DNA of 57,651 nt, taken from contig JBDTZG010000033.1 of NCBI GenBank assembly GCA_040005235.1, forward strand, positions 1 to 57,651. Direction: 5' to 3'. Shown here one piece after another: positions 7 to 57,650 of this stretch. The notes under the pieces are model-generated. The model saw only the letters and a program-made list of their open reading frames with translations. It was not told the DNA's origin and did no database searches. The number at the start of each line of letters is the position of its first letter. Positions within the stretch are counted from its first letter, which is position 1. The DNA comes from Acidobacteriota bacterium (GTDB lineage Bacteria > Acidobacteriota > Thermoanaerobaculia > Multivoradales > UBA5704). The position numbers and the translations under genes were made by a program.

Positions 7-172
7 CGTCCGCCACCAGGGCGGACGAACTACCCACACAGAGAGGCGAAGACCCCCAAGTTAGGGACGCTTCGTCCGCTTGAGGGCCGAAGGCCCGCCC
101 CAACATAGCCTGGGGCAACGCCCCAGGAACCGATTCGGCCCCGAGATCTCAAAAGCTGAAAGCCCGCCCTAT
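7..172. repeat. REP-like palindrome cluster
   Basis: Short GC-rich hairpins: cgtccgcc-acca-gggcggacg, gggccgaaggccc, cctggggc-aac-gccccagg, and a partial second copy gctgaaagcccgccctat. Architecture resembles RAYT/IS200-associated REPs. Confidence 0.6.
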
Positions 173-29538: not shown

Positions 29539-31482
29539 ATGTTTGCCAACATCCTTTCCCGGACGCGCCTGGAAATTTGCGCCGCGCTCTTTCTGGCCGC
29601 AACGCTCGCCTCTCCCGCTTTCGCCGTAGGTCCCTGGGCTTCGAATCCCGTCGTCTTCGGCCAGGAGGTGGGCGGTGTGGTCGATGCCGACTACAGCTCG
29701 GCCTGGAACCACTGGAAGGATCTCGGCTACGCCCCGGTCAACCTGTCCGGCGTCGAGAAGTCGGGAGCCGCCACCCGCTACAGCGGCCTCTGGCACAAAG
29801 ATCCGAGCATCGCCACCTGGACCTCGAAGCGAGGATTGACCGCCACCGCCTACCAGACCCTCTGGGACCAGCTGATCGGCCAGGGCTACCGGGTGCTCGA
29901 CCTCGACGCCCACGTCGTCTCGGGCCAGGCGCTCTACGACGCGATCTGGATCAAGGAGCAAGGGGGCAGCAAGGGGTTCAAGTCCCATCGCATCCTCACC
30001 CTGGCGCAGCTCGACACCAAAATGGCCGAGTACGCCGGGCAGCGCTTCCGGCCGATCCGGGTGAACGGCTACCGCGTCGGCAGCCAGACCTATTACGCCG
30101 CGGTCTGGGTGCAGGACGGCCTGACCGATTTCGGCTACAAGCGCGATCTCACCTCGGCGGATTACTCCTCCTGGTGGACTTTCTACAAGAACGCCGGATA
30201 TCGGCCGGTCGACATCGCGGCCTATCCGACCTCCGCGGGGCTGCGCTACGCCGGGCTCTGGGTGCGCGAAGGCGGAATCGACGGCTGGATTTCGCTGCGC
30301 GATCGGACCGCCGCGCAGATGCAGGCCGAGATCATCGCGCAGAAAAAAGCGAACTACCTGGAAGTGGATCTCGACGCCTACTACGTCGGTTCGGAGCTCC
30401 GCTACTCCGGTATCTGGATCCGCCGCCAGACGAGGAACGTCCTCACCGGCAACGTCGTGCTTTCCGGCTCGCAGATCGATCAGCTGAAGGCGAAGCTCAC
30501 GGAGTACACGACGAACGGCACCGACGGCCGCAAGGGGTCCGTCGGCTTCTATATCGAGGATCTCACCACGGGCCATTGGATCGCCTTCAACCCGAACGAG
30601 CCGTTCTATCTCGCCTCCGCCTCGAAGACCTTCATTGCGGCCAAAGAAGTTTCGATGCCGGAAATGTCGGCCGGCGACCTCTACCAGCTGCGGACCTCCG
30701 ACTGGCGCGGCGAAGCGACCCGCGGCTTCACGAAGGCCGACATTGGCGACAACCAGACGGTCGCGACCTACCTGGACCACATGATCAACAACAGCGACAG
30801 CTGCTCGACCGATCGACTGCATGGCCTGATCGAGCACTTCGACGGCGCGCTCGCGGTCAACAAGTTCCTCGATTCCCAGGCCGACATGCAGAACGTCGGC
30901 GAAATCACCACCATCTGCCAGGTCGACAAGCGGATCGAGGCGAGCGCCGACTCCTGCGTGTTTTCGGTCCCCTGCCACAGCTTCGAAAGCTGGTTCCGGT
31001 CGAACGACAAGAGCTACTCAACGGCCGCCGACATCGCGTGCTTCAACAAGCTGAACGCCTCGCCGGTTTCCACAAACAGCCGCTACGACCTCTACTACAA
31101 CAGCCTCGCCAACTCGGTCACTCCGGCCGAAGCGGGCCGCTTCTTCCGAAGCGTCGCCGACCACGATCTGCTGACCGTCTTCGACGAAGGCGATTTCGTC
31201 CGCGAGCTGGACAAGAACAACTCCTACGCGCCCCCGGCAGCCGGAGCCTTCCAAGCCTGGGGCGGCAAAGACGGCGGCAAATATAAAGTGAAGAGCTGGA
31301 TCGGTCTCGCCTGGAACTGGGATTTCGCAGCGGGCGACTACTCCTCCCTCACTCACCAGTTCAGCGTCGCGATGTTCACCGAAGACTGGACCACCGACGA
31401 CGCGACCGGGGATTCGAAAGCGTCGGCGATCATCGGCGATGCGATCAAGGTCGCGATCCCCTACCTGGTGGGCAAGCGGTAG
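29539..31482 (+). CDS. Secreted serine hydrolase (class A beta-lactamase-like) with N-terminal bacterial tandem repeats (polyglycine-hydrolase-like)
   Basis: About 5 repeats of W....GLT...Y....GYR..D....Y..LW; SxxK (ASASK), NSD, KDG; AGGAGG RBS. Confidence 0.85.
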   Translation: MFANILSRTRLEICAALFLAATLASPAFAVGPWASNPVVFGQEVGGVVDADYSSAWNHWKDLGYAPVNLSGVEKSGAATRYSGLWHKDPSIATWTSKRGLTATAYQTLWDQLIGQGYRVLDLDAHVVSGQALYDAIWIKEQGGSKGFKSHRILTLAQLDTKMAEYAGQRFRPIRVNGYRVGSQTYYAAVWVQDGLTDFGYKRDLTSADYSSWWTFYKNAGYRPVDIAAYPTSAGLRYAGLWVREGGIDGWISLRDRTAAQMQAEIIAQKKANYLEVDLDAYYVGSELRYSGIWIRRQTRNVLTGNVVLSGSQIDQLKAKLTEYTTNGTDGRKGSVGFYIEDLTTGHWIAFNPNEPFYLASASKTFIAAKEVSMPEMSAGDLYQLRTSDWRGEATRGFTKADIGDNQTVATYLDHMINNSDSCSTDRLHGLIEHFDGALAVNKFLDSQADMQNVGEITTICQVDKRIEASADSCVFSVPCHSFESWFRSNDKSYSTAADIACFNKLNASPVSTNSRYDLYYNSLANSVTPAEAGRFFRSVADHDLLTVFDEGDFVRELDKNNSYAPPAAGAFQAWGGKDGGKYKVKSWIGLAWNWDFAAGDYSSLTHQFSVAMFTEDWTTDDATGDSKASAIIGDAIKVAIPYLVGKR

Positions 31483-31495: not shown

Positions 31496-31645
31496 CCCGA
31501 GCGAGGGGTTGAAACCCCTCGCTCGCATACGCCGTCCCTGCGGGACGGAATTGGGACCTGAGATTTTTCGGGTCCTTCGCTCGTTTCAGGGACACGTCCC
31601 GTCAGGGACGTCGTAACCTAGCGAGCGATTTCAATCGCTCGCGGG
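31496..31645. repeat. Inverted REP doublet (REPIN-like)
   Basis: The left arm gcgaggggttgaaacccctcgc..gtccctgcgggac is an inverted copy of the right arm gtcccgtcagggac..gcgagcgatttcaatcgctcgc. Same family at 57540-57650. Confidence 0.85.
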
Positions 31646-31686
31646 ACTTCAGCATGCCGCATCCTCTTGCGTAGCAACCACCCTTC

Positions 31687-31703
31687 GTGTTGCAATGCAA
31701 CAC
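31687..31703. promoter_or_regulatory. Perfect palindromic operator GTGTTGCA-a-TGCAACAC
   Basis: 8-bp inverted repeat ending 1 nt before ATG 31705. Confidence 0.7.
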
Positions 31704-31704
31704 A

Positions 31705-32169
31705 ATGACGCAACAAGAATACGAACACCAAAAGCGCCTTCTCGACGAGCAGCTGCAGGCCGGGATCGCGCTTCTAGAGGCGGCCCACCGCCAGCAGCGG
31801 CGGGCGTTGGATCTGGTTTGGATGACCATGGCGGAGGGGGACATCGCGCCGGGGTTCCCGGTTCCGGCGCTTCTGGCCGCCGCGCCGGCTCGGGAGCGGG
31901 AGGCTCCCCGGCCTGCCGAGAAGCGCGTGCGCCGGCTTCCGGGCGCGCTCCAAGCCGAGGTCGAGGCTGCTCTGGAGAAGCTCCCGGAGCGGTTCGACCG
32001 GAACGATCTGCTGGCGTTGCTCCCGGGGGAACCGGATCGCAGCTCGCTGTTCCGGGTGCTTCAGGAGATGGCGGATGCCGGCCGCTTGAGGGTCGAGCTT
32101 CGCGGGGAGGGGCGCCTGCCGACGCGCTACTACAATCCGCAGGCGCCGGCCGCGGAACCGCCGGACTGA
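31705..32169 (+). CDS. Hypothetical DNA-binding protein (N-terminal coiled coil, C-terminal winged-helix-like)
   Basis: YEHQKRLLDEQLQAGIALLEAAHRQQRRALDLVW coil, A/P/R linker, LPERFDRNDLL...PDRSSLFRVLQEM...GRL....G.GR.PTRY. Confidence 0.75.
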   Translation: MTQQEYEHQKRLLDEQLQAGIALLEAAHRQQRRALDLVWMTMAEGDIAPGFPVPALLAAAPAREREAPRPAEKRVRRLPGALQAEVEAALEKLPERFDRNDLLALLPGEPDRSSLFRVLQEMADAGRLRVELRGEGRLPTRYYNPQAPAAEPPD

Positions 32170-32207
32170 GATCCGCGACCGCCGCTTCGGGCGCGGGCAC
32201 CCTCCTG

Positions 32208-32803
32208 GAGACGCGGGGAAGTGGAGCCACGCAACGCAAAACCAGTGACGCGACGCGAGGTACCGGTGCAATCACGCAACGCACTTCGGTTGCAACGCAC
32301 CGTGGCAGCTTTGAGAAGTTCGGAAGCCGGAATGCAACGCTGCGGACCCGGGATGCAACGCGAGGGAGCGGGAACGCGCAGCCGAGAACCGGCTCCCGGA
32401 GGGCGGAAGCCGCCTCCGAGCGACGGGAAACCACTTCCGTACCTCGGTGCAACGCAATCTCGTAGCTCATCACCTGGATCCTGCGTTGCGAAGGTGGTGC
32501 GTTGCGTCTCGGCGCTGGTACGCCGTGTCGCGCCAGGGGTGCGCGGTGTCTCGTCGCTGGTATTTCCAGTTGCGTCACCAGGTCCGCGCGTTGCGACAGA
32601 GGGGCGTCGTCTTGCGTGAGCGGCGCCTGGTGTTACGGGAGCGGTGCTTCGTTGCGCATCGGTGGAGCGCGGCGTCGCATCCTCGGTGCCGCGGGGTGCG
32701 TGGCCGGTGTTTCGCTCCGCCTCACCCCTTTTTCGCGTTGCCGTGGGAGGTTTTCGCGTTGCGCGGGTGGATCTCCGTCGTACGGCATCGGGCTCCGCGT
32801 CGC
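32208..32803. repeat. Head-to-head 21-bp-phased array of GCAACGC/GCGTTGC motifs
   Basis: GCAACGC-like motifs at 32208, 32250, 32271, 32292, 32334, 32355, 32449. Reverse-complement GCGTTGC-like motifs at 32483, 32504, 32525, 32546, 32567, 32588, 32609, 32630, 32672, 32735, 32756. Confidence 0.85.
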
Positions 32804-32849
32804 AGGAGGCGCGCCGAGGGCGGTTTCGTCCGCTAAGATCCGTCGCCTC

Positions 32850-33353
32850 ATGCCCTCGATGCCCTCGACCAGCGATTCCAAGTTCCTCCGCCAGGCTCGC
32901 TCGCGGTTCCTCATGCGGCTGTTCTTCCTGGGCAAGCTCCCGCTCGCCCTCTTCGCCGGATTGCGGATCGATGAAATCACCGCCGAGCGCTGTGTGGTCT
33001 CGCTGCCCTACGGCTGGCGGTCGACCAACCCATTCCGCTCGATCTATTTCGCGGCGCAAGCGATGGCCGCGGAGCTTTCGACCGGGGCGCTCGCGATGGC
33101 GGCGATCGAAGCTTCCAAAGCTCCGGTTGCGCTGTTGATCGTCGGGCTCGAAGCGACGTTCGAAAAGAAGGCTGGGGCGCGGGTGTCTTTCACCTGCGAG
33201 GCCGGCCCGGCGATCTCCGCGGCGGTCGCCCGCGCGATCGAGACGGGAGAGCCGCAGACCGTGCGGGCCGAGACGATCGGCCGGCTGCCAGACGGCGCCG
33301 TGGCCGCCCGTTTCGCCTTCACCTGGTCGTTCAAGAAGCGGTTAGGGAAATAG
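32850..33353 (+). CDS. DUF4442/YiiD-like hotdog-fold thioesterase
   Basis: KLPLALFAGLR, LPYGWRSTNPFRSIYFAAQAMAAELSTG, FEKKA, FTWSFK. Confidence 0.85.
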   Translation: MPSMPSTSDSKFLRQARSRFLMRLFFLGKLPLALFAGLRIDEITAERCVVSLPYGWRSTNPFRSIYFAAQAMAAELSTGALAMAAIEASKAPVALLIVGLEATFEKKAGARVSFTCEAGPAISAAVARAIETGEPQTVRAETIGRLPDGAVAARFAFTWSFKKRLGK

Positions 33354-33361
33354 GGCCGGGT

Positions 33362-33790
33362 CTATTCCGGATGCCTCTGACGGCTGGTGGCGATCAAAAG
33401 ATCGGAGCCGGGATTGACCGCTGCGAGCAACCGGCCAAGTTGCTCGACGGACGGCATTGTGCGCCCCTGTTCGTATCGCGCGTAGGTGTTCGGCGATGAG
33501 GCACTGAGCCGCTTTGCCGCCTCCGCAAGGGTTACCCCGTTCAGCAAACGTTGGCGCTTCAGCATCAAGGCCGTTAGCGGTGCAAAGTCGGGCGAGCCCA
33601 CTTCGAAATAACCTCCATCCCCAGGAAACACTTCGACCGAGAAACCGGTCTTGTTGACGAGCGCCTCGATGGCATCGGCGACCATCAGGTAGGCCTCGGA
33701 TCGAGTCCCGCCCTGAGTGACGACGCCTAGGATGGGTACCTCGATAGCCCAGAAGCGACCCTGCTTATGCATCCTGCCTTCGAATCTCAT
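33362..33790 (-). CDS. HicB-like antitoxin with XRE HTH
   Basis: MRFEG.....GRFWAIEVPILGVVTQG.TRSEA..M.ADAI; C-terminal HTH YARYEQGRTMPS. Confidence 0.85.
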   Translation of the reverse strand: MRFEGRMHKQGRFWAIEVPILGVVTQGGTRSEAYLMVADAIEALVNKTGFSVEVFPGDGGYFEVGSPDFAPLTALMLKRQRLLNGVTLAEAAKRLSASSPNTYARYEQGRTMPSVEQLGRLLAAVNPGSDLLIATSRQRHPE

Positions 33791-33853
33791 GACTTTGCTC
33801 CTTTGGCCTCTCGAAGAATCGCCTTCGCCGCGCTCGAGGTCGCGGCGCTTCAC
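33787..33853 (-). pseudogene. Internally deleted HicA toxin remnant
   Basis: GTG-KRRDLER start joined out of frame to AAKAILREAKGAKS*, whose TGA overlaps the hicB ATG. Confidence 0.65.
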
Positions 33854-33939
33854 GGGTGGAGAATTACACCGATCCGTGTCCAGAGCAAGGCGCTGGTGAG
33901 GAGCATGCGTATGCAAGACAGCCTGTCTCCTTTGCCGCC

Positions 33940-33969
33940 TGGCCCCCTTCTCCCCAATTCGCCGCCTCT
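33940..33969 (+). promoter_or_regulatory. Putative ECF promoter TGGCCCC-N16-CGCCTCT (copy 1)
   Basis: Identical boxes and spacing at 34797 and 43098. Confidence 0.75.
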
Positions 33970-34006
33970 CCTCGCGCCACGGATTTTGTGGCCAAAGGAG
34001 AGAACG

Positions 34007-34936
34007 ATGCGTAGACGATCGAGTTGGATTCGGCTTGCCTTGGCGGCCCTCGGGATTCTCGGAGGGTTTCTCGCCGCGGCGCTGCCCGGCGCGGCGCAGG
34101 GTTGGGACCAGGCGTATGGGAACCTGGCGAACACCGGCTTTGTGAACGTGACGACCCACGTTCCGGTTTCGCCACGGTGGATCTTTCAGCTGGACGGTTC
34201 GGTGAGCGCGGGCGGTCCTTCGGTGAGCGGCAAGGACGGCACGATCTGGGTCGGCACGGCGAACGGCACCCTTTGGGGGTTCTTGTCGAACGGCAGCGTC
34301 CTCTGCTCGCGGAACTTCAAGGAATCGACGATCACCTCCACCCCAGCGTTCTTTCCCAACGGGGATGTCGCGATCCTGGTCAGCCAGACCGTCGCCGGCT
34401 CCCCTTGGAAACAGACGTCGATCGCGCGGCTCACTCCCGCTTGCGCGATCGTCTGGAAAGTCCAGCTGCCGCAAGGTCGTACCTACCCGAGCACCGCCTC
34501 GGGGTCGGTCAAGATCTGGACCCGGAACGGCGTTCCGTTTCTGTTCGTGCATGGGCGCCAGACGATCAACGTCGACCTGACCACCGCGGACCCCGAAAGC
34601 TTCAACGAGCTGCTCGTCTACGACGCGAACGGCAGCATCTTCGCCCGGCGCCAGTCGGGGAATGGGTGCATCACGGTGAGTGGGGGTGGTGGATTCCTGA
34701 CCGCCAACAGCGCGGGCGATCCGCTTTACGGCGACATTTGGAATTTCCTGACCAGCTTCTGGCCGCCGCTCGACGTCCTTCGGCCCGCCTTAGATTTGGC
34801 CCCCATTTCCCGCGCTTCCCGCCTCTCCTTGGCAACAACCTTCAGATTGCCAAGGAGAGAACGATGCGCACACATGGGGGAGGGCCCCGGCGGGCTTTTG
34901 CCGCTTGGGGATTTGTTTTCGGTGGCTTGGGTCTAG
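34007..34936 (+). pseudogene. 3'-truncated PQQ-like beta-propeller secreted protein (paralogue of the next gene)
   Basis: WDQAYGNLANTGFVN and further motifs shared with the next gene. Similarity ends near 34690-34770, then the ORF runs through the next promoter and start. Confidence 0.65.
34797..34826 (+). promoter_or_regulatory. Putative ECF promoter TGGCCCC-N16-CGCCTCT (copy 2)
   Basis: See copies 1 and 3. Confidence 0.75.
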
Positions 34937-36282
34937 CGGCGTCGGCAGGCGCCGCGGGGGGTTGGGATCAGGCGTACGGCAACCTGGCGAATACGGGTTT
35001 CGTCAACACCACTACGAACATTCCGGTGGTGGCGAACTGGGCGTTCTCGCTGGAGGGTGAAGTGGGCACGAGCGGGCCGGCGGTCGATTCCGTCAGCGGC
35101 ACGATCTATCTCGGCTCGGCGAACGGAACGTTCTGGTCGATCTTGCCCGACGGAAAACTCAACTGCAAGCGGATGTTCAAGGACCGGTCGATCCCGTCGG
35201 TGCCCGCGATTTTTCCCAACGGCGACGTGGCGATCCTCCTAACCCGGCCCGCGGGTGATAAAAAGCAGACGGCCCTGGTGCGAATGGCGCCCAATTGCAG
35301 CGTGGTCTGGCAGGTCGACCTGCCGACCATGTTTGGCAACCCCAGCTCCGCTTCCGGCTCGGCGAAGATCTGGACGCTCGACGGCCGGTCGTTCCTCTTC
35401 GTCCACGTGCATGATTCCAACTTCGATTTTTCCTTCGAGCCGTACAGTTTCGATGAGCTGATCGTCTTCGACGACTTGGGCCGGACCTTCGCCCGGCTCC
35501 CCGTCGGGGACGGGTGCCTCGACCTCCGCGGCGGGGGCCGGTTCAGCGCCGACCCCCATCGCCGAAAGGATTCGAGCGGCTCGCCGGACTCCGACGTGGC
35601 AGGGCAAGTCGCCGTAACCACCGGCTGGCCCGATTCGACCCCGGCGATTCTGGATACGCCGCTGCACGGCTTTTCGACTCCCAGAGCTCCGCTCGTCGCG
35701 GTCACAGACGACCTTTGCGACGTACGTTTGGAGGTCCTCCAGTTCGATCCCGCGGCGGCCACCGTGGCGGGGCGCCTGGTCAAGCGCTGGGGCCATCGGG
35801 GCGAAGAGGACGGTGTGCGGCTTTCAAGCCCGACCGTCACGCCGGAAGGGTTGATCGTGTTTGGCACCAGCTGCTACCGGGTGCGAATCTACGACCTCAA
35901 CACGCTGTCGCTCCGAAGCTCTTTCGATTCGACCTACGCGGTGATGCATCCGCCAGCCTTGGCGCCCGATGCCTGGCTGGTCAATTCCGAATACGCGGCC
36001 CATCTGCTCAAGCCGGGGACCAACACCCCGATCGATACGGCACGGCCGCAGCCCGTGTACACCTTGGGCTCGGCAACCGGCGTAGCCGCGAGCCTGAACG
36101 AAATGGTCGTTCCGAACCTTCAGGAGTTGGGGGTCTGGAGCCACGATCTGCTGAGCCGCACTCACGCTCTGGATCACGAGGAATTCCGTACTTCGAGCCC
36201 GGCCTTGACGCCGGACGGGAGGCTCTACGTCGTGTCCCAGACCAGCGAAAAATCATTCCTGTTCGCGTTGGGACCGCCCTGA
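34864..36282 (+). CDS. Secreted PQQ-like beta-propeller protein
   Basis: AAGGAGAG RBS, signal peptide, W.Q..G...NTG, SGPAV..GTIYLGS.NG, SSPTV, SSPAL..DG.LYV, LFALG. Confidence 0.82.
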   Translation: MRTHGGGPRRAFAAWGFVFGGLGLAASAGAAGGWDQAYGNLANTGFVNTTTNIPVVANWAFSLEGEVGTSGPAVDSVSGTIYLGSANGTFWSILPDGKLNCKRMFKDRSIPSVPAIFPNGDVAILLTRPAGDKKQTALVRMAPNCSVVWQVDLPTMFGNPSSASGSAKIWTLDGRSFLFVHVHDSNFDFSFEPYSFDELIVFDDLGRTFARLPVGDGCLDLRGGGRFSADPHRRKDSSGSPDSDVAGQVAVTTGWPDSTPAILDTPLHGFSTPRAPLVAVTDDLCDVRLEVLQFDPAAATVAGRLVKRWGHRGEEDGVRLSSPTVTPEGLIVFGTSCYRVRIYDLNTLSLRSSFDSTYAVMHPPALAPDAWLVNSEYAAHLLKPGTNTPIDTARPQPVYTLGSATGVAASLNEMVVPNLQELGVWSHDLLSRTHALDHEEFRTSSPALTPDGRLYVVSQTSEKSFLFALGPP

Positions 36283-39200
36283 TCAGGCGGCAGGCCTCGA
36301 TCCGCGCGCGAGGCGCGGGGCGCTAAGGATCTCGGCGGCTTGCCGGGCGATTTTGCCAAAGCGCCCCGCGTTTGCGTCCCGCTCCAATTGCTCGGCGAGC
36401 GCGCGGACCCGTTCCGGATGGTCGCCGCGGGCGAGCGCGAGGCGCACTTCTAATAACCGGGTTTCCAGCAACAGGGTGCCTTGCGAGTTGGTGCGGCATT
36501 CGGCTTCGGCGGAGGCGAGCAGCCGCTCCGCCTCGGCCCAATCGCGAGTGCCGAGGGCGACGGCGGCCGACGCGAGTTTCCACTGCACCCGCGTCTCCAG
36601 CCTTTGCGACGTGGCCGCGCCGCGAGCCCGCTCGGCCCAGGCCGCCGCCTGGCGCGGCGACCCCGCTTCGCTCCAGCAGCGGACGAGGAGGATGCGGTTC
36701 AACTCGGCGGCCGGATGGTTCATTTCTTCGAGCTGGCGCAGGGAACCCTCCTCGCCGCGGCAGACCGAAGGAGAGGGGCGGGCCACCTGTCGGCGGGAGG
36801 CGAGCAAGACGGCCAAGTCGCTCGCCCGGCCCGCCTCGGGAAACAGCGCCGCGGCGCGATCGAACCAGTCGAGGGCTTGGGCGTCTTGGCCCAAGACGGC
36901 GGTCCATTCCGCGCGCAGCCAGAACAAGGTGGCGAGATCGCGTTGCGCGCCGAGCTTCCGGGCCACGGCCTCGATCTCGACCAGCAGCGCCTCGGCTTCG
37001 GTAAGCTCGCCCCGCTGTTGCAAAATCGTCGCGAGCACCGCGCGGACGCGATTGCCGCCCAAGACATTGCCCGTTTCGGCATACAGGTCCAGCGCTTTCC
37101 GCGCGTTCGACTCGGCCGCGGTCAAGTGGCCGAGGTCGACGTCGAGGTTCGCCAGATTGAAGCGGAATCGCGCCTCCTCGGCGGGATCGCTGACGGCGCC
37201 GCGGGTCGCAATGTCCAGCGCCTCCGCGATCGTCGACCGGGCTGCGACCACCTGGCCGCGGTGGCGCTGCAAGATCCCGAGGTTGTTGAGCACCCGCATG
37301 ATCCCCGCGGGATTTCCCAGCCGCCGCCGCAGCCGCAGGCTCTCCTCGCAAGCTCGCTCGGCCTCGTCGTTTTGGGCGTCGCGGATCAGCGAGGTGCAGA
37401 GCAGTTGGAGGGAGCGGGCAACACCTCCGGTTTCGCCTTGCGCGTGAAACAGAGCTTGAGCGCGCCTCGCCGCGGACCGCGCTTGCCCGTTGTCGCCGAG
37501 GGCGTCGTACGCTCCTCCCAAACTGAGCGAAGCCCGGGCCGAAAGGGCGGGGAAACCTTGGGCGAGAGCGTCGTCGGCGAGTTTTTCCGCTCGTTCCTGG
37601 ACGTCGTGCGAGCGACCCAACGGGGCGAGCGCTTCGAGCTCGATTTCGCCCAGCCGCAGGCGCTGCGAAAGAGAGGAAACCACCGGCCGCAGCTTGGCGA
37701 CGATCTCCAGCGCCTCGGCCGGCCGGCCGCCGGTCGCCAGGCTTTCGGCGAAGCGCAGGCCGACTTCCGCGCGGTCCGGCCGGAGCAGCCAGAGCGAGCG
37801 CAGCAACTCGGCCTCCTTGGCCCGCTGGCCGGAGGTTCGCAGCGCCACCGAGGCGACCAGCAGCTCGCTTTCCCGCGGCAGCTCCGCGCTGCTCGCGAGC
37901 GCCTTCTGTCCTTCGCGGTGCGCCTCTTCGTCCCGATCGGCTAACGCCAACGCGTCGGCGAGAGCGGCGTGGACGAGAGGATGGTTGGGATCGGCGGACA
38001 CCGCGGCGCGCAATGCGGAGAGGGCCGCGGTCGAATCGCCGCGCGCCGCGGCGTCGAGCCCTTGGGCGTAGCTCGCCCGGGCGGATGGGGCGACCGGCGC
38101 CGCGAGCCAGGGCGAGGCATCGGCAGCGACCGGGCGCGGAAAGGTGCCGCGCGAGGCGCCCGAGAGCCAGAGCGCGGCCACCGTAAGAAGAGCTACGACG
38201 AGGGCCGCGTTCAGCCACAGCCAGCGCCTTCGGCGAACGTGTTTGACGATTCCGTAGAGCCGGGAACCGCGCCGGGCGAGCACGGTCCGCCCTTCGAGGT
38301 AACGCACGAGATCCGCGGCGAAATCGGCGGCGGAGGCGTAGCGCGCGGCGGGCTCTTTTCGCAGCGCTTTGGCGAGGATCGCGTCGAGGTCACCGCCCAG
38401 GCCGGCGGGCTGCGGCTCCTGTTCTCGGATCGCCAGGTCGAGCGCCTCGGGACCGGTTTGGGTGAGCTTGTAGGGCCGCCGGCCGACGAGAAGTTGGTAG
38501 AGGACGACCCCGAGCGAGTAGACGTCCGAAGCGCGTTCGACCGGCTCTCCGCGAATCTGCTCGGGGCTCGCGTAGGCGGGGGTCATCGCTCGATGCCGGG
38601 TCTCCGTGACGTCCGCCGTTCCGGATTCCCCTTCGAGCAGCCGCGCGATGCCGAAGTCGAGCAGCTTCGGCTCGCCGCGTTCCGAGACCAGCAGGTTGCC
38701 GGGCTTCAAGTCCCGATGGACCACCGACGAGCCGTGCGCGTGCTCGACCGCTTGGAGAACCTTGAGGAACAGCCCGATTCGTTCGCGGAGCGTGGCCCCG
38801 GTGCGTTCGCAGTGTTCGATCAGCGTCGTGCCGCGGACCAGCTCCATCGCGAGATAGGGCTGCCCGGACGGGGTGATCCCCGCGTCGTACAGGCGCGCGA
38901 TGCCGGGATGTTCGAGCGCGGCGAGAATGCTCTGCTCGGCGCGAAACCGGCGCAGCAGGGAAGCGTCCACCCACCGGCCGAGCACCTTGAGCGCCACTTG
39001 GCGCGTGAATCCCTCGCCGAGCTGCTCGGCGATGTAGACCGTGGCGCTCCCGCCGCGGCCGATGGATGCAAGAATCCGATAGCCGGGAATCGGCTCGGGA
39101 GACTCCGGAACGGCGCCCAGCTCGCGCAGCGGCGGCTGGTCGAGCGGCGTGGTCGAGCGTTCGGCTTCGGCGAGCAGGGCGCGCAGCTCGGCCGCGAATT

Positions 39201-39312
39201 CCGGATCGTCGCCGCTCCAGCCGCGGATCGCTTCGTCGCGCTCGGGCGCCGCGAGGTCCTGCACCTGGTCGAACGCCGCGCGGAGCCGGCCGAACCGCGG
39301 GTCTCGGGTCAT
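36283..39312 (-). CDS. Ser/Thr protein kinase with TM helix and TPR region (kinase 2)
   Basis: GRGGSATVY, VALK, HRDLKPGN, DFGIA, TPAYASPEQ; TM helix after RRRR; TPR C-terminus. Confidence 0.95.
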   Translation of the reverse strand: MTRDPRFGRLRAAFDQVQDLAAPERDEAIRGWSGDDPEFAAELRALLAEAERSTTPLDQPPLRELGAVPESPEPIPGYRILASIGRGGSATVYIAEQLGEGFTRQVALKVLGRWVDASLLRRFRAEQSILAALEHPGIARLYDAGITPSGQPYLAMELVRGTTLIEHCERTGATLRERIGLFLKVLQAVEHAHGSSVVHRDLKPGNLLVSERGEPKLLDFGIARLLEGESGTADVTETRHRAMTPAYASPEQIRGEPVERASDVYSLGVVLYQLLVGRRPYKLTQTGPEALDLAIREQEPQPAGLGGDLDAILAKALRKEPAARYASAADFAADLVRYLEGRTVLARRGSRLYGIVKHVRRRRWLWLNAALVVALLTVAALWLSGASRGTFPRPVAADASPWLAAPVAPSARASYAQGLDAAARGDSTAALSALRAAVSADPNHPLVHAALADALALADRDEEAHREGQKALASSAELPRESELLVASVALRTSGQRAKEAELLRSLWLLRPDRAEVGLRFAESLATGGRPAEALEIVAKLRPVVSSLSQRLRLGEIELEALAPLGRSHDVQERAEKLADDALAQGFPALSARASLSLGGAYDALGDNGQARSAARRAQALFHAQGETGGVARSLQLLCTSLIRDAQNDEAERACEESLRLRRRLGNPAGIMRVLNNLGILQRHRGQVVAARSTIAEALDIATRGAVSDPAEEARFRFNLANLDVDLGHLTAAESNARKALDLYAETGNVLGGNRVRAVLATILQQRGELTEAEALLVEIEAVARKLGAQRDLATLFWLRAEWTAVLGQDAQALDWFDRAAALFPEAGRASDLAVLLASRRQVARPSPSVCRGEEGSLRQLEEMNHPAAELNRILLVRCWSEAGSPRQAAAWAERARGAATSQRLETRVQWKLASAAVALGTRDWAEAERLLASAEAECRTNSQGTLLLETRLLEVRLALARGDHPERVRALAEQLERDANAGRFGKIARQAAEILSAPRLARGSRPAA

Positions 39313-39352
39313 CCTCGGCCGCCTCGCCCTACCGCCATCGGCCCCGGCCTCT

Positions 39353-42300
39353 CTACCCGCGGGCGAGGCGCGGGACGCGGAGGATCTTGCCCGCCTCTTC
39401 GGCGACCTTGCCGAAAAGGCCCGCCTTCGCGTCGCGCTCCAGCTCCTCGGCCAGCGTGCGAACCCGCTCGGGGTGATCGCCCCGGGCGAGCGCGAGCCGG
39501 GTTTCGAGCAGCCGGGTCTCCATCAGGTGGTAGCCGAGCGAGACGCGGCGGCATTCCGCGGCAGCCTCTTGGAGGATTTCGTCCGCATCCGACCAACGGC
39601 GCGCGCCGAGCGCCACGGCGGCTTTAGCTAGCTTGAATTCCACCCGGATCGAAGGCAGTTGCGAAGCGGTCGCCTCTTTCTCAGAGCGGTCGAGCCAGCG
39701 CTTCGCCTGGGCGGAAAACCCCGCGTCGCTCCAGCAGCGCGAAATGCCCACCGCAAGCTCGACGGAGGTCCGATCGCCGAGCCGGGTAAGCTCCTGCTCC
39801 GACGATTCGAGCTCGCGGCAGGAGCGCTCCGAAGGTTCCGCCAGCTGCTTCCTCGAAGCCTCGAACCGGGCGATCATCTCTCCCGCGCTGACGCTTTGGA
39901 GCGGAACCGCGGTCTGGTCGTACCAGCGGCGGGCGTCGTCCATTTTTCCTTCGAGCTTCGCCAGGTCGCCGCGCTGCCAGTGAGTGTTGGCGAGGTCGCT
40001 CGGCGAACCGGCTTTCCGCGCGATCGGTTCGGCTTCGTCGAGGACGGTTCCGGCCTCGGCGAGCGCGCCGCGATACATCAGCACCACGGTGAGAGAACCG
40101 AGCGTGCGCATCAGGCTGAGCTGATTGCCGGCTTCGCGCAGGATCACGATCGCCTGGCGGAAGCCGTTTTCCGCCTCGGCGAGATTCCCCAGGTCCATGT
40201 CGAGGTTCGCGAGGTTGTGCAGATATTTTCCCTGGGCGACGCGGTCGCCGAGGACGCTCTGGCGCTCGATCTGAAGCGCTCCGGAAAACGACTCCCGGGC
40301 CTCCAGGATGAGGCCGCGGCGTCTGCGGGATATCCCCAGGTTGCTGAGGGCGCGGGCGAGACCGCTCGAATTGCCTAATTTTTTCGCCCGCCGCGAGCAC
40401 TCGCCGCACAACCTCTCGGCTTCCTCGTGGCGCGACTGCCGCACCGCCCCGAGGCACTCCAGGTTCAGCGCCCGGACGACGCCTCCGCCCTCGCCCCGCG
40501 GTACGAACAGGCGCCGGGCCTCCTCCGCGAGCGGAATCGATTGATCGCGTTGGCCCATGCCGTCCCGGCCCTGACTCTCTTGCAGCAGCGCCTGGGCGGC
40601 GAGGAGCGGCAGTTTGCGCGCCTTCGCCGCGGCGACGGTCGCCTGCGCGATCCGGGCGGCATCGACCGGGCGTCCCAGGGCGTTCATCGCTTCGGCCTCG
40701 ACCAGGTTGATCCGCAGGTCGGCCCCCGGCGGTTGGCTCTGAGCGGGCAAAGCGCGAAGTTTCGCGGCCAGCTGGAGCGCCTCATCCGGCGTTCCGCCTT
40801 CGACGAGGCTTTTGGCGAGCAGATAGCCGACCTCAAAATTGCCCGGGGCGAGCAGCCAAAGCGAGCGGCGCCGCTCCAGCTCGTCGGACTTCTTTCCCGA
40901 AGTCTGGAGCGCCACCGCTTCAATCAGCAATCGGCTCTCACGCGGTGCCCGCAGGGCCAATTGGAGCGCCTGCTGTCCCTCGGATCGGGCGAGCAGGTCG
41001 TGGCCCGCCCGGGAGTGCGCGGTCGCGAGCGCAGCGTGCACCAACGGCTGGTTGGGATCCTCTGTCTCGGCGGCGCGCAGTTTGGCGATCGCCGCCGTCG
41101 TCTCGGAGCGCGCCAAGGCGTCGAGCCCTTCGGCGTAGCTCGCCCGAGCCGCCGCCGCGATCGGCATCGCGAGCCAGGGGGAGGCGTTGGGATCGACGGC
41201 GGCCGCCCCCGAAAGTCCCCCGGCCAGCCAGATTCCGACGCCGGCCAGCAAAAGCGCCGCGAGGGCGGCGTTGAGCCAGAGCGCGCGCCGCCGACGGACC
41301 TCCTTGCCCAGGCGATAGACCAGCGAGCCGCGCCGCGCAAGGACCGACCGGCCGTCCAGATAGCGCCGCAGATCGGCCGCAAAGTCGGCGGCCGAGGCGT
41401 AGCGTTCCTCGGGCTCTTTGCGCAGCGCCTTGGCGACGATCGCGTCGAGATCGCCGCCCAGGCCCGGAGGATCCGGATCCTGATCGCGGATCGCGCGCTC
41501 CAACGCTTCGAGGCTGGTGTCGCCGATTTTGTAGGGCCGCCGACCGGTGAGCAGCTCGTAGAGGACCACGCCGAGCGAATAGATGTCCGAGGGTCGCTCG
41601 ACCGGCTCGCCGCGCACCTGCTCGGGGCTCGCGTAGGCGGGAGTCATCGCGCGATGGCGGGTCTCGGTGACGTCGAGATTCCCTGCGGCCTCCGGCGCGT
41701 GCAGCCGCGCGATGCCGAAATCGAGCAGCTTCGGCTCGCCCCGCTCGGAGACCAGGATGTTGCCCGGCTTCAAATCGCGATGGACGATCGACGAGGCGTG
41801 CGCATGCCCGACCGCTTCGAGCACCGACAGGAACAGCGCGATCCGGTCGCGCAGGGGGGGGGCCTCGATTCGCTTGCAGTGCTCGACCAGCGAGACGCCG
41901 CGCACCAGCTCCATCGCGAGGAAAGGCCGCCCCGAGGCGGTGATCCCCGCGTCGTAGAGCCGGGCGATGCCGGGATGTTCAAGAGCGGCCAAAATCCGCT
42001 GCTCGGCGCGAAATCCGCGCAGCAGCGAAGCGTCCACCCAGCGGCCGAGCACCTTGAGCGCCACCGGCCGGGTGAAGCCATCCCCCTGCTGCTCGGCGAG
42101 GTAGACGGTGGCGCTGCCGCCCCGGCCGATCGGTTCGATCAGCCGGTAGCCGGGGATCGTTTCCGGGGCTCCCGCGCCCGGTGCCTCCTCCTCCGGGGAC
42201 CCACCCTTCGAGTCGCGCAACGCGCGGAGCGGCGGAGTGTCGAGCGGCGTGGTCGAACGCTCGTCGGCGGCGAGCAGGGCGCGCAGCTCGGCCTCGAACG

Positions 42301-42412
42301 CGAGATCCGCGCCGCTCAAGCGGCGGATCGCCTCATCGCGGCCGGCCGGCCCTCCCTCGAGGACTTCGTGGAACGCCGCGCGCAGGCGACCGAAACGCTC
42401 CTCGGCAATCAT
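39353..42412 (-). CDS. Ser/Thr protein kinase with TM helix and TPR region (kinase 1)
   Basis: Same kinase motifs; ATG 42412 is ATGA-coupled to the ECF stop. Confidence 0.95.
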   Translation of the reverse strand: MIAEERFGRLRAAFHEVLEGGPAGRDEAIRRLSGADLAFEAELRALLAADERSTTPLDTPPLRALRDSKGGSPEEEAPGAGAPETIPGYRLIEPIGRGGSATVYLAEQQGDGFTRPVALKVLGRWVDASLLRGFRAEQRILAALEHPGIARLYDAGITASGRPFLAMELVRGVSLVEHCKRIEAPPLRDRIALFLSVLEAVGHAHASSIVHRDLKPGNILVSERGEPKLLDFGIARLHAPEAAGNLDVTETRHRAMTPAYASPEQVRGEPVERPSDIYSLGVVLYELLTGRRPYKIGDTSLEALERAIRDQDPDPPGLGGDLDAIVAKALRKEPEERYASAADFAADLRRYLDGRSVLARRGSLVYRLGKEVRRRRALWLNAALAALLLAGVGIWLAGGLSGAAAVDPNASPWLAMPIAAAARASYAEGLDALARSETTAAIAKLRAAETEDPNQPLVHAALATAHSRAGHDLLARSEGQQALQLALRAPRESRLLIEAVALQTSGKKSDELERRRSLWLLAPGNFEVGYLLAKSLVEGGTPDEALQLAAKLRALPAQSQPPGADLRINLVEAEAMNALGRPVDAARIAQATVAAAKARKLPLLAAQALLQESQGRDGMGQRDQSIPLAEEARRLFVPRGEGGGVVRALNLECLGAVRQSRHEEAERLCGECSRRAKKLGNSSGLARALSNLGISRRRRGLILEARESFSGALQIERQSVLGDRVAQGKYLHNLANLDMDLGNLAEAENGFRQAIVILREAGNQLSLMRTLGSLTVVLMYRGALAEAGTVLDEAEPIARKAGSPSDLANTHWQRGDLAKLEGKMDDARRWYDQTAVPLQSVSAGEMIARFEASRKQLAEPSERSCRELESSEQELTRLGDRTSVELAVGISRCWSDAGFSAQAKRWLDRSEKEATASQLPSIRVEFKLAKAAVALGARRWSDADEILQEAAAECRRVSLGYHLMETRLLETRLALARGDHPERVRTLAEELERDAKAGLFGKVAEEAGKILRVPRLARG

Positions 42413-57539: not shown

Positions 57540-57650
57540 GGCGGGGTGAATCGGCCGCTAGAATGGGTCGTCCCTGACGGGACGAGATGTTCAAAAACAC
57601 GTCCCGGGAGGGACGTCGTAACATAGCGAGTGATTTCAATCACTCGCGGG
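57540..57650. repeat. Inverted REP doublet, same family as 31496-31645
   Basis: gtcccgggagggacgtcgtaacatagcgagtgatttcaatcactcgcggg is a near copy of 31596-31645. Confidence 0.85.

What the first reader, a model, noticed from the sequence alone, without database searches (positions are those of the whole stretch)
31687..32803. Candidate undescribed system: coiled-coil/winged-helix gene with a palindromic operator and a 600-bp head-to-head, 21-bp-phased array of the same half-site
Seen: a perfect palindrome GTGTTGCA-a-TGCAACAC abuts the ATG of a 154-aa gene that has no obvious SD. Right after its stop, ~600 bp carry (T)GCAACGC motifs mostly on a 21-bp register (32208-32355, plus 32449). The orientation flips near 32469 to GCGTTGC motifs that hold an exact 21-bp register from 32483 to 32756, with unrelated spacers. 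The array motif is nearly the operator half-site (TGCAACRC). Inference: 21 bp is two helical turns, so sites fall on one DNA face. The protein layout (oligomerising coil, flexible linker, wHTH) parallels Rok/H-NS-type bridgers and centromere-binding proteins. This suggests a self-contained protein-plus-cognate-array module (centromere-like, DNA-wrapping, titrating or selfish). No partition ATPase or recombinase is nearby.
Basis: partly seen in the sequence, partly recalled or inferred. Interest (0 to 1): 0.9.

Follow-up and report, generated by a model that had tools for sequence, protein, structure and literature searches.

The report
Small DNA-binder gene with phased repeat array
An uncharacterised small gene for a predicted DNA-binding protein in a soil Acidobacteriota genome is followed by a non-coding array of about 27 short repeats spaced every 21 bases, a pairing kept in most of its relatives, and similar arrays are scattered about 90 times through the genome.

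Summary
A 154-aa gene (31705-32169) has a perfect 8-1-8 palindrome against its ATG. It is followed by a two-armed array with 21-bp periodicity (about 32208-32797).

The gene-plus-array pairing is conserved. All 4 paralogues in this genome have a downstream array, as do 61 of 86 homologous loci from Thermoanaerobaculia genomes. Controls: 5 of 300 random windows and 0 of 24 upstream regions.

The protein is predicted to have a long N-terminal helix that pairs antiparallel, a disordered linker and a PadR/RTP-like winged helix. No curated family matches it.

The array is not coding. It lacks a codon-phase GC or conservation pattern, its motif flips orientation, and sister arrays in the genome have a 20-bp period.

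The module is not self-contained. This genome has 93 arrays of 20- or 21-bp period and none of 19, 22 or 23 bp. Many lie beside housekeeping genes, and a relative without the gene has them too. The operator/array match is weak across the family.

Best reading (about 0.45): a DNA-level array of phased sites bound by the adjacent protein. Binding is untested.

The parts
31667..31696 (+). Conserved promoter-like element: TTGCGT (31667-31672), 18-nt spacer, TG-T-TGCAAT (31688-31696). The hexamer ends 8 nt before the ATG, which implies a leaderless or nearly leaderless mRNA (inferred).
   Evidence: Across 87 homologous loci, TGCAAT ends 6-12 nt before the start in 27, against 0 of 3000 random positions. 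A TnnAAT/TGyTAT hexamer is there in 44, against 0.6% at random. Of those 44, 35 have TTGC/TTGT/TTGA at -35 distance. The sigma-70 consensus scan finds no promoter here.
31687..31703 (.). Perfect palindrome GTGTTGCA-A-TGCAACAC overlapping the -10-like element. Candidate autoregulatory operator.
   Evidence: Read directly. Among the orthologues, L002 keeps 7 of 8 positions of the right half and L003 is degenerate. The array-core PWM matches CGTGTTGCA at -19, and the self-match ranks at 0.07.
31705..32169 (+). 154-aa gene: N-terminal dimerising helix, disordered Pro/Ala/Arg linker, C-terminal PadR/RTP-like winged helix.
   Evidence: Three-way identity by codon position is 0.88/0.93/0.73, and GC by phase is 0.82/0.47/0.82. 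AlphaFold2 model: mean pLDDT 73.7. The family has 603 representatives in a 1.84-billion-protein library. No Pfam, NCBIfam, PADLOC or PHROGs family matches.
32208..32460 (.). Proximal arm of the array: about 12 units of 21 bp with core (T)GCAACGC. Degenerate.
   Evidence: No codon-like pattern.
32461..32482 (.). Centre where the motif changes orientation.
   Evidence: rows. Inverted repeat I1 joins 32241-32299 to 32482-32540.
32483..32797 (.). Distal arm: 15 units in exact 21-bp register. Core GYGTTGCG, with a second weaker block (GGTG) about 13 nt further on.
   Evidence: Conservation is uneven across the 21 columns in a fixed register (chi-square p = 0.0075). Orthologues differ by indels of exactly 21 nt.

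Best explanation
The locus is one member of a conserved two-part module found in Thermoanaerobaculia (Acidobacteriota).

Part 1 is a small gene read from a promoter-like element that almost abuts its ATG. Its product is predicted to dimerise through an antiparallel N-terminal coiled coil. That would hold two PadR/RTP-like winged-helix domains on long flexible basic tethers.

Part 2 lies directly 3' of the gene. It is a non-coding DNA array of about 10-25 short sites spaced exactly 21 bp apart. That is two helical turns, so all sites face one side of the helix. Most arrays are split into a short arm and a long arm of opposite polarity.

Proposed mechanism (inferred, not shown): each winged helix reads one 7-9-bp core, and dimers coat one face of the array cooperatively. 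The dyad-symmetric dimer may also sit on the palindrome over the gene's own promoter. The array would then act as a cis-linked sink or nucleation platform that sets the level of free protein, or that builds a local nucleoprotein structure.

The array belongs to a lineage-wide class of dispersed 20- or 21-bp-phased intergenic arrays. Some of these share their unit with a paralogue's array and could be further targets in trans.

Shown here: the anatomy, its conservation, the non-coding nature of the array, and the fold prediction. Inferred: DNA binding, cooperativity and autoregulation.
For: Linkage of gene and array.
- All 4 paralogues in this genome have a 21-bp array just downstream.
- 61 of 86 homologous loci with at least 400 bp of downstream sequence have one, with 9-24 units called (median 13) and a median main block of 317 bp starting a median 85 nt after the stop.
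- The same caller flags 5 of 300 random genome windows and 0 of 24 upstream regions.
- Array-unit similarity tracks protein similarity (Mantel r = 0.36-0.42, p = 0.0005). Gene and array therefore diverge together.

DNA-level rather than coding.
- A genome-wide period scan finds 71 arrays at 21 bp, 20 at 20 bp, and none at 19, 22 or 23 bp.
- The array has no GC3 or codon-position conservation pattern, unlike both flanking genes.
- The motif flips orientation. In 44 of 61 arrays the minor arm has 2 or more units.
- 42 of 61 arrays show conserved columns beside free columns (p < 0.01).
- The two arms are no more complementary in mirrored pairs than the shared motif explains.

Protein.
- The model has a helix at 3-44 (pLDDT above 90 over most of it), disorder at 45-67, and helices and strands of a winged helix at 79-143.
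- The PDB profile search matches the Zur DNA-binding domain (E = 8e-4).
- Foldseek returns only winged-helix DNA binders, including RTP-DNA, Zur, PadR, SlyA and Rok, all at E >= 0.014.
- The homodimer prediction for residues 1-50 scored 0.64 against 0.02 for the best of 3 controls. That mark was reached by 20 of 30 proteins solved as pairs of one chain and by 1 of 23 solved as single chains. The runs agree in at least 95% of contacts, and the partner pLDDT is at least 84. The listed contacts (21 with 21/24, 28 with 13, 35 with 6-10, 42 with 1) are antiparallel. The model supports pairing and does not show it.

Possible targets in trans and a parallel case.
- The C24 paralogue's array unit recurs in 4 other arrays (similarity 0.85-0.93). 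The C21 unit resembles the commonest array type (0.66-0.69).
- A MarR regulator gene in contig C107 is followed 24 bp later by 13 tandem copies of a 21-bp dyad, GATTTC-N9-GAAATC.

At this locus the array core matches the palindrome half-site.
Against: - No experiment or model here shows that the protein binds the array.
- The operator/array match is weak across the family: mean self-rank 0.41, 13 of 61 in the top tenth, Wilcoxon p = 0.014.
- Array similarity correlates with the recognition helix no better than with the N-terminal helix (r = 0.385 against 0.359; partial r = 0.26 against 0.21). The co-variation is therefore what co-inheritance alone would give.
- Among three orthologues the core is only slightly better kept than the spacer: right arm 70/120 against 92/195 (p = 0.063), left arm 54/88 against 84/143. 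The array as a whole is 50-68% identical where the gene is about 90%.
- Arrays of this class do not need this gene. 89 of the 93 arrays in this genome have no family member nearby. I scanned 73 ORFs flanking 40 other arrays. The 25 Pfam families listed are mostly housekeeping enzymes, and none occurs in more than 2 ORFs. A same-family genome without the gene has 7 + 3 arrays in 400 kb.
- 25 of 86 homologous loci lack an array by my caller, mostly in the divergent clade that has a Shine-Dalgarno (array in 6 of 16 loci with one, against 55 of 70 without).
Confidence: 0.45

Rival explanations
1. The arrays are a dispersed, self-propagating or near-neutral minisatellite class of this lineage, comparable to REP/BIME or MIRU elements. 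On this view the 20/21-bp period is inherited from a common ancestral unit rather than selected. The 154-aa gene merely sits beside one copy and is duplicated together with it. The protein is an ordinary autoregulated transcription factor with other targets.
For: - There are 93 arrays per genome, in every kind of intergenic setting: 16 ++, 15 +-, 8 -+ and 7 -- among the 46 arrays with both neighbours called.
- The flanking genes are housekeeping.
- 36 arrays link into one superfamily by unit similarity.
- Arrays occur in a relative that lacks the gene.
- Orthologous arrays drift fast and change by whole-unit indels.
- The core-versus-spacer constraint among orthologues is not significant.
Against: - The 61 of 86 linkage persists down to about 30-40% protein identity and across five genera, which is long for a passenger.
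- 42 of 61 arrays have nearly fixed columns next to free ones. Uniform decay would not produce that.
- No mobilising enzyme is associated. The genome's Y1 transposases are flanked by a different, hairpin-type REP.
Confidence: 0.25
2. The array works as RNA. It is read through from the gene as a long 3' UTR, or made as a separate ncRNA. It folds on itself or sponges an RNA-binding protein, possibly the winged-helix protein itself.
For: - No terminator-like hairpin lies between the stop codon and the array (z = +1.06).
- The array follows the gene on the same strand with a consistent polarity.
- The 611-nt stretch folds better than shuffles (-319 against -290 kcal/mol, z = -4.5 on 20 shuffles).
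Against: - The good fold is expected from any inverted motif array. Mirrored units are not more complementary than the consensus allows.
- The motif reads differently in the two arms on one strand.
- A restriction to 20/21 nt fits B-DNA phasing better than any RNA rule I know of.
- No Rfam family matches.
- In 28 of the 44 loci with a called downstream neighbour, that neighbour converges on the array.
Confidence: 0.15
3. The two opposed arms are polar roadblocks of the RTP/Ter kind, bound by an RTP-like winged-helix dimer. They would stop replication forks or RNA polymerase coming from one or both sides. This is a special case of the protein-binding reading.
For: - 11 of 22 family members give weak Pfam hits to RTP (best E = 3e-4).
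- The RTP-DNA complex 1f4k is Foldseek rank 7 (E = 0.05).
- RTP and PadR-s2 proteins are winged helices with a single dimerising helix that bind inverted repeats (PMC3506622, passages read).
- The array has opposed polarity and lies beside the gene. The array often lies between convergent genes (28 of the 44 called neighbours).
Against: - The sequence and fold matches are weak and generic.
- The dimerising helix is N-terminal and separated from the winged helix by about 35 disordered residues, unlike RTP.
- About 90 arrays per genome would be many fork barriers.
- I could not test array polarity against the direction of replication.
Confidence: 0.08
4. The array is a translated heptad-repeat ORF (21 bp = 7 codons).
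For: Three of the six frames stay open across the right arm, for example 32447-32836 (+) and 32130-33059 (-). Indels among orthologues are multiples of 21.
Against: - Open frames are expected at 66% GC.
- GC by phase is 0.58/0.73/0.64 (left arm) and 0.67/0.61/0.78 (right arm), against 0.57-0.82/0.46-0.54/0.82-0.87 in real genes.
- Three-way identity by phase is 0.58/0.68/0.51 and 0.50/0.46/0.59, against 0.88/0.93/0.73 in the gene.
- The motif flips strand.
- 20 sister arrays in the genome have a 20-bp period.
- Translations across other arrays look like out-of-frame sequence rich in Arg, Pro and Ser.
- No Pfam hits.
Confidence: 0.02
5. The module is the iteron origin, or the partition centromere, of an integrated plasmid-like element.
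For: The form resembles these systems: tandem sites of about 21 bp on one face, next to the gene of a winged-helix protein, with a palindrome at its promoter that shares the half-site.
Against: - The protein is 154 aa with one winged helix, and has no Rep, helicase or primase domain.
- No NTPase partner or recombinase lies nearby.
- There are 3-8 copies per genome, including on single-contig chromosomes.
- No hit in PHROGs or PADLOC.
Confidence: 0.03

Closest known systems
Plasmid centromere-binding proteins with iterated sites (ParR-parC of R1/pSK41, TubR-tubC). Recalled knowledge; of the review PMC5016525 I saw only the search listing and the start of the abstract.
   Same: A small dimeric DNA binder (TubR is a winged helix) is encoded next to an array of its own short sites at helical phasing. 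It coats the array into a higher-order complex and autoregulates.
   Different: Those arrays have 4-10 units and lie upstream at the promoter. The gene sits in an operon with a ParM/TubZ/ParA motor, and the system is on plasmids or phages. Here there is no motor gene, the array is 3' of the gene with 10-25 units in two opposed arms, and there are 3-8 chromosomal copies per genome plus about 90 orphan arrays.
Iteron replicons (RepE of F, RepA of P1/pSC101, pi of R6K). Recalled knowledge.
   Same: 19-22-bp iterons on one DNA face lie downstream of the gene (incC/incA). An inverted-repeat operator at the rep promoter shares a half-site with the iterons. The array titrates the protein.
   Different: Rep proteins have two winged-helix domains and about 250-350 aa, and they initiate replication at an adjacent AT-rich/DnaA-box origin. 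None of this is seen here.
RTP-Ter of Bacillus subtilis and PadR-s2 regulators (PMC3506622, passages read).
   Same: A winged helix with one extra helix for dimerisation, binding to inverted repeats, and weak sequence and fold likeness. From recall: rtp lies beside two opposed Ter sites and autoregulates through them.
   Different: The dimerising helix here is N-terminal and separated by a long disordered linker. All matches fall below the curated thresholds. There are many units per arm instead of one site.
H-NS / Lsr2 / MvaT / Rok nucleoid-associated bridgers. Recalled knowledge; the Rok C-terminal domain is Foldseek rank 47.
   Same: The same three-part layout and size: an N-terminal coiled-coil oligomeriser, a flexible basic linker and a C-terminal DNA-binding domain. 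Several paralogues per genome.
   Different: No sequence homology. Those proteins bind AT-rich DNA without dedicated arrays. Here the DNA is GC-rich, with defined cores at fixed phasing.
REP/BIME with RAYT transposases, and MIRU-type intergenic minisatellites. Recalled knowledge.
   Same: Families of short repeats are dispersed through intergenic regions, often at gene 3' ends. One gene sits beside repeats of its own type, and the gene clade and repeat type vary together.
   Different: REP units are hairpins mobilised by a Y1 nuclease. This genome has such a system separately. The arrays here are strictly 20/21-bp tandem units, mostly not hairpins, and the adjacent protein has no catalytic domain.
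BldC of Streptomyces (PMC5859096; title and start of abstract only).
   Same: A small DNA-binding protein that binds DNA direct repeats as cooperative multimers.
   Different: BldC is MerR-like and lacks a coiled coil. Whether it has any long cis-linked array was not checked (only the title and start of the abstract were seen).

Membership tests
Iteron-type plasmid replicon | Rep initiator with two winged-helix domains (about 250-350 aa) | tested here: not met
   154 aa with one winged helix plus one long helix. No Rep family in Pfam or NCBIfam.
Iteron-type plasmid replicon | Tandem 17-22-bp iterons at helical phasing near the gene | tested here: met
   21-bp register over about 27 units.
Iteron-type plasmid replicon | Plasmid or mobile-element context | tested here: not met
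   3-8 copies per genome, on chromosomes assembled as one contig (G102, G090). The neighbours are ordinary chromosomal genes.
Partition system (type II/III centromere plus centromere-binding protein) | Adjacent motor NTPase gene (ParM, TubZ or ParA) | tested here: not met
   None among the 15 ORFs scanned between 19.7 and 42.5 kb.
Partition system (type II/III centromere plus centromere-binding protein) | Small DNA-binding protein encoded next to an array of repeats | tested here: met
   Binding itself was not tested.
H-NS/Rok-type nucleoid-associated proteins | Oligomerising coil, flexible linker and C-terminal DNA-binding domain | tested here: met
   By prediction only: (score 0.64 against best control 0.02).
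H-NS/Rok-type nucleoid-associated proteins | Sequence membership in the Pfam H-NS, Lsr2, MvaT or Rok families | tested here: not met
   No such hit at E <= 1 for the query or for any of the 22 members.
RTP (PF02334) / PadR (PF03551) winged helix | Score above the curated Pfam threshold | tested here: inconclusive
   RTP hits in 11 of 22 members (best E = 3e-4) and PadR hits in 2 of 22 (best E = 1e-3). The window protein itself has none. Foldseek 1f4k E = 0.05.
RTP (PF02334) / PadR (PF03551) winged helix | Single C-terminal dimerisation helix packed against the winged helix | tested here: not met
   The long helix is N-terminal and separated by about 35 disordered residues.
REP/BIME-RAYT | Hairpin-forming REP unit and an associated Y1 transposase | tested here: not met
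   The array units are not hairpins. The Y1 genes lie elsewhere and are flanked by a different REP.
CRISPR array | Repeats of 23-47 bp separated by unique spacers of similar length | tested here: not met
   The whole period is 21 bp, and the variable stretch between cores is about 13 bp.
Type III toxin-antitoxin (ToxIN-like) | Tandem repeats of about 34-40 nt upstream of a toxin gene | tested here: not met
   The period is 21 bp and the array is downstream of a winged-helix gene. No PADLOC hit.
Heptad-repeat protein gene | Codon-phase composition and conservation | tested here: not met
   Sister arrays with a 20-bp period.

The most novel reading that the evidence does not exclude
Thermoanaerobaculia chromosomes carry an undescribed sequence-addressed architecture system. 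About 90 dispersed arrays of sites phased at two helical turns would serve as anchor or barrier elements. A family of H-NS-like proteins (antiparallel coil plus winged helix) would coat them, and each protein would be encoded beside a 'master' array of its own unit type. Because the N-terminal helix is the best-conserved part among paralogues, paralogues could pair with each other and tether arrays of different type. Alternatively, the opposed arms could act as polar roadblocks of the RTP/Ter kind.
Probability: 0.2. Interest if true: 0.9.

Novelty: new variant of a known kind. Interest (0 to 1): 0.78.

Why it matters
If the protein does coat its array, this would be a chromosomal relative of plasmid centromere and iteron systems that lacks both a motor and a replication protein, and it would be multiplied several times per genome.

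It also points to a larger feature. I found no description of a class of roughly 90 intergenic arrays per genome locked to a 20- or 21-bp period in an uncultured soil lineage (literature searches found nothing relevant). Such arrays would be natural handles for studying how bacteria without H-NS organise or insulate GC-rich chromosomes.

They also break MAG assemblies. In this genome 6 arrays lie at contig starts and 5 more end within 100 bp of a contig end.

The family has 603 representatives at 50% identity in metagenomes and no curated model, so even a plain DNA-binding assignment would annotate many proteins.

Tried and rejected
- Tandem Repeats Finder did not report the array.
- Rfam at gathering thresholds found nothing in the region. 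No tRNA genes.
- The sigma-70 consensus scan found no promoter. Its terminator-like hits are no more than the shuffles give.
- Expression could not be tested: no RNA holder was listed among the public runs.
- Protein Atlas: only unnamed clusters.
- PADLOC and PHROGs: no hits.
- Test for co-variation between the array core and the upstream region: weak.
- Partial Mantel tests did not single out the recognition helix.
- Core-versus-spacer conservation among three orthologues: not significant.
- Test for mirror-pair complementarity between the arms (selection for a hairpin): none beyond consensus level.
- Idea that every array sits next to its own regulator: rejected. I scanned 73 ORFs flanking 40 other arrays, and the Pfam families listed are mostly housekeeping enzymes (only the 25 commonest of 64 families were displayed). 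Of the genes that end just before six other arrays, five are a YafQ toxin, RecX, pterin dehydratase, PIN and a transglycosylase-associated protein, and the sixth has no Pfam hit.
- Idea that the arrays are REP elements of the genome's Y1 transposases: rejected. My shared-11-mer count was uninformative, because random windows scored as high.
- Inverted repeats at the family's promoters: not enriched (19 of 87 against 14% at random).
- The downstream neighbour is not a conserved target gene: 28 convergent, 16 co-directional and 17 not called.
Full report
**1. What is there**

The window is contig C87 of a 6.22-Mb, 66% GC assembly of 140 contigs. Close relatives of the protein come from MAGs labelled Thermoanaerobaculia or Acidobacteriota, and a few from MAGs labelled Holophagales. 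An Acido-Lenti-1 RNA at 83-127 fits that placement.

The sequence shows the palindrome GTGTTGCA-A-TGCAACAC at 31687-31703. One base further on is the ATG (31705) of a 154-aa ORF that ends at 32169. No Shine-Dalgarno precedes it.

From about 32208 to 32797 the DNA is periodic at 21 bp. Autocorrelation at lags 21/42/63 is 0.45/0.40/0.38 in the left part and 0.51/0.49/0.46 in the right part. The background is 0.28-0.30, and neither flanking gene shows such a peak.

The left part carries (T)GCAACGC. After about 32470 the motif appears as its reverse complement, GCGTTGC(G), in 15 units of one exact register starting at 32483. The array is degenerate and Tandem Repeats Finder misses it. It is nonetheless the only place in the genome with 6 or more of the 1431 motif copies within 600 bp. 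The one qualification is that only 3 of the 6 exact left-arm motifs share a register.

**2. The gene is real and the array is not coding**

Among three orthologous loci (L001, L002, L003), the gene is about 90% identical in DNA. Three-way identity by codon position is 0.88/0.93/0.73, and GC by phase is 0.82/0.47/0.82. The downstream DUF4442 gene behaves the same way.

The array is only 50-68% identical to its orthologues and shows no codon-like pattern in composition or conservation. Orthologues differ by insertions and deletions of exactly 21 nt. The motif changes strand halfway through.

A scan of the whole genome for periods of 6-60 bp finds 71 arrays at 21 bp, 20 at 20 bp, and none at 19, 22 or 23 bp. 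A 20-bp period cannot be a heptad of codons. Both periods are close to two turns of B-DNA. Translations across other arrays look like out-of-frame sequence. The 'translated heptad ORF' condition that would have refuted the finding is not met.

**3. The protein**

No Pfam, NCBIfam, PADLOC or PHROGs family matches. The family is nonetheless sizeable. The word-indexed search finds 27 clusters, all unnamed. A profile search of 1.84 billion representatives finds 603 at E <= 1e-3, of which 281 are at <= 1e-10 and 75 at <= 1e-30. Nearly all are 120-200 aa long.

The AlphaFold2 model, built on a 22-sequence alignment, has mean pLDDT 73.7. It shows one long helix at 3-44 with the highest confidence, a disordered Pro/Ala/Arg stretch at 45-78, and a winged helix at 79-143 made of three helices and three strands.

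A profile search of PDB sequences hits the DNA-binding domain of Zur (E = 8e-4). Foldseek returns only winged-helix domains, all at E >= 0.014, among them RTP-DNA, Zur, PadR, SlyA and the Rok C-terminal domain. Eleven of 22 members give weak Pfam hits to RTP and two to PadR. Passages of PMC3506622 describe RTP and PadR-s2 proteins as winged helices with one dimerising helix that bind inverted repeats.

A homodimer prediction for residues 1-50 scored 0.64, against 0.02 for the best of 3 controls. That mark was reached by 20 of 30 proteins solved as pairs of one chain and by 1 of 23 solved as single chains. The runs agree in at least 95% of contacts, and the partner pLDDT is at least 84. The contact list is antiparallel. 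This supports pairing and does not show it.

The N-terminal helix is the most conserved part of the family.

**4. The module is conserved**

tblastn and a family HMM over all six frames find exactly four members in this genome: C87, C28, C21 and C24. Each is followed by a 21-bp array with a different unit, and each array changes polarity.

A search of 201 genomes of the order finds the gene in 31. That includes 23 of 33 genomes in the window's own family, with 3-8 copies per genome.

I collected 87 loci and scored them with one fixed procedure. It requires a seed periodicity, at least 8 units, and at least 60% of spacings as multiples of 21.
- 61 of the 86 loci with enough downstream sequence have an array.
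- The same procedure of 300 random 1.3-kb windows of this genome and 0 of 24 upstream regions of the same genes.
- Arrays start a median 85 nt after the stop codon. They have 9-24 called units, and their main block has a median length of 317 bp.
- In 44 of 61 arrays the minor arm has at least 2 units, and in 31 it has at least 3 (counted).
- The 25 loci without an array are mostly a divergent clade with a normal Shine-Dalgarno. An array is present in 6 of 16 loci with an SD and in 55 of 70 without.

The neighbour beyond the array is convergent in 28 loci, co-directional in 16 and not called in 17. The array therefore belongs with the upstream gene and not with a downstream promoter.

**5. The promoter and the palindrome**

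Across the family the start codon is preceded by a conserved TTGC...-N17/18-TGnTGCAAT element.
- TGCAAT ends 6-12 nt before the start in 27 of 87 loci, against 0 of 3000 random positions.
- A TnnAAT-type hexamer is there in 44 of 87, against 0.6% at random.
- 35 of those 44 have a TTGC/TTGT/TTGA at -35 distance.

The left half of the window's palindrome is therefore largely this shared element. It implies a leaderless or nearly leaderless mRNA, which is an inference.

The right half (TGCAACAC) is specific to this orthologue group and is already eroded in L003. Perfect 6+6 inverted repeats at these promoters are not enriched over random (19 of 87 against 14%).

The array core does match the upstream region at this locus and in some others. 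Over all 61 arrays the effect is small: mean self-rank 0.41, 13 in the top tenth, p = 0.014.

**6. Do protein and array co-vary?**

Array-unit similarity correlates with protein similarity (Mantel r = 0.36-0.42, p = 0.0005). It does so about equally for the recognition helix, the wing, helices 1-2 and the N-terminal helix. That is what co-inheritance of a linked pair would give, so it is not evidence of a recognition code.

Clade-level pairings are visible. For example, helix '...DRGAARRNL...' goes with units like GTGGCTTCAGCGATTTTCT, '...GALYRTLQ...' with GGGGAATGTTCC, and '...GSLYRTFQ...' with GTGAYGC. The 'SSLFRVL' helix goes with GCGTTGC in two separate clades. These are few independent events.

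Among the three orthologues the core is kept only slightly better than the spacer. Within arrays, however, 42 of 61 show strongly uneven conservation across the 21 columns. The window's right arm does so in a fixed register (p = 0.0075).

**7. The wider context changes the interpretation**

The genome holds 93 arrays of 20- or 21-bp period, each about 200-680 bp long. Many lie at contig ends. They fall into unit families: one linked group of 36, a 20-bp group of 14, and smaller ones.

The unit of the C24 paralogue's array recurs in four orphan arrays (similarity 0.85-0.93). The C21 unit resembles the commonest type (0.66-0.69). The window's own unit is unique (best match 0.51).

Only four arrays have a family gene beside them. 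I scanned 73 ORFs flanking 40 other arrays. The Pfam families listed are mostly housekeeping enzymes such as deformylase, NadA, catalase and CysRS, and none recurs more than twice.

Arrays lie in every kind of intergenic setting. In 400-kb samples:
- A same-family genome without the gene (G112) has 7 + 3 arrays.
- A genome with 8 copies of the gene (G102) has 2 + 2.
- A genome of another family (G008) has 2 weak ones.

The arrays are therefore a feature of the lineage and do not depend on this gene. The gene family is strongly attached to them, by roughly 40-fold over the random-window rate.

Two other gene sets are also attached to arrays.
- A 129-aa helical protein family has 20 copies in this genome. 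Eight of the 20 have an array within 300 bp upstream, one of them a 20-bp array. This is my cross-check; the family first appeared.
- A set of TPR proteins has arrays downstream.

One MarR regulator is followed 24 bp later by 13 tandem 21-bp dyads, GATTTC-N9-GAAATC. That is what a tandem operator array would look like.

**8. Explanation**

I commit, at about 0.45, to a DNA-level array of phased sites bound by the adjacent dimeric winged-helix protein. The palindrome would be its autoregulatory site, and the array a cis-linked sink or nucleation platform.

Shown here: the anatomy, the conservation of the linkage, the non-coding nature of the array, the restriction to a two-turn period, and the predicted fold and pairing. 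Inferred: binding, cooperativity, autoregulation and any architectural role.

The main rival, at about 0.25, is that the arrays are a dispersed minisatellite class whose period is inherited, and that the gene merely travels with one copy. An RNA-level role (0.15) cannot be excluded without expression data. None was available: no RNA holder was listed. The 611-nt stretch folds better than shuffles (z = -4.5), but any inverted motif array would. An RTP/Ter-like polar roadblock is an attractive special case with weak support.

**9. Comparison and novelty**

The module works most like the plasmid pairings of a centromere-binding protein with its centromere, or of a Rep protein with its iterons. 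The protein's layout is like H-NS or Rok. It fails the defining tests of each of these (see the membership table). It is also not CRISPR, not REP/BIME and not a type III toxin-antitoxin system.

Full-text searches for 21-bp or tandem-repeat arrays in Acidobacteria or Thermoanaerobaculia, and for chromosomal iteron-like arrays with coiled-coil winged-helix proteins, found nothing relevant. Supplementary files were not open to me.

I rate it a new variant of a known kind: a DNA-binding protein with a cis-linked array of iterated sites. If the genome-wide arrays prove to be functional protein platforms, the system as a whole would be new in kind.

Noticed in passing
window 31498-31645 and 57569-57615: Pairs of strong GC-rich hairpins (z = -5.6 and -4.4) lie just upstream of the module. 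The hairpin CGTCCC-N3-4-GGGACG occurs at 30 sites in the genome and 0 times in the reversed control, often in doublets. It flanks both sides of a Y1 (IS200/RAYT-like) transposase gene at C48:29199-29537. This looks like a REP/REPIN-RAYT system, separate from the 21-bp arrays.
   Followed up: partly
whole genome G000 (list): There are 93 intergenic arrays of 20-bp (20) or 21-bp (73) period. None has a period of 19, 22 or 23 bp. They fall into unit families, and several show a 42-bp super-period of two alternating units (for example C138:15224 and C21:12751). Several lie at contig ends, so they break assemblies.
   Followed up: partly
G000 C127:301-687 and 19 paralogues: A second unannotated family, a helical protein of about 129 aa, has 14-25 copies per genome in four of the five other genomes of this genus (4 in an 85%-complete one). 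It has no Pfam, PADLOC or PHROGs hit. Eight of the 20 copies in this genome have an array within 300 bp upstream.
   Followed up: partly
G000 C107:31921-32334 (gene) and 32358-32630 (array); locus L176: A MarR-family regulator gene is followed 24 bp later by 13 tandem 21-bp units of the dyad GATTTC-N9-GAAATC, and then by a copy of the 129-aa family.
   Followed up: partly
G000 C18:145649-146974, C124:330-1565, C111:118597-119430, C8:182351-183151: Related TPR-repeat proteins each have an array just downstream, mostly of the commonest unit type. One of the four was scanned with Pfam and gave TPR hits.
   Followed up: no
window 83-127 (-): Acido-Lenti-1 RNA motif (Rfam RF01687, 43.1 bits against a gathering score of 37).
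   Followed up: no
window 33362-33790 (-), 33767-36282 (+), 36283-42502 (-): Downstream lie an HTH_3 (XRE-type) protein that resembles a HicB antitoxin by eye, two adjacent ORFs of unknown family that look paralogous by eye, and two tandem Ser/Thr kinase-TPR genes of about 1000 aa. Upstream lie a polyglycine-hydrolase-like beta-lactamase-fold protein (29539-31482), a TonB-dependent receptor, FecR, a zf-HC2 anti-sigma-like protein and a CHAT protease.
   Followed up: partly
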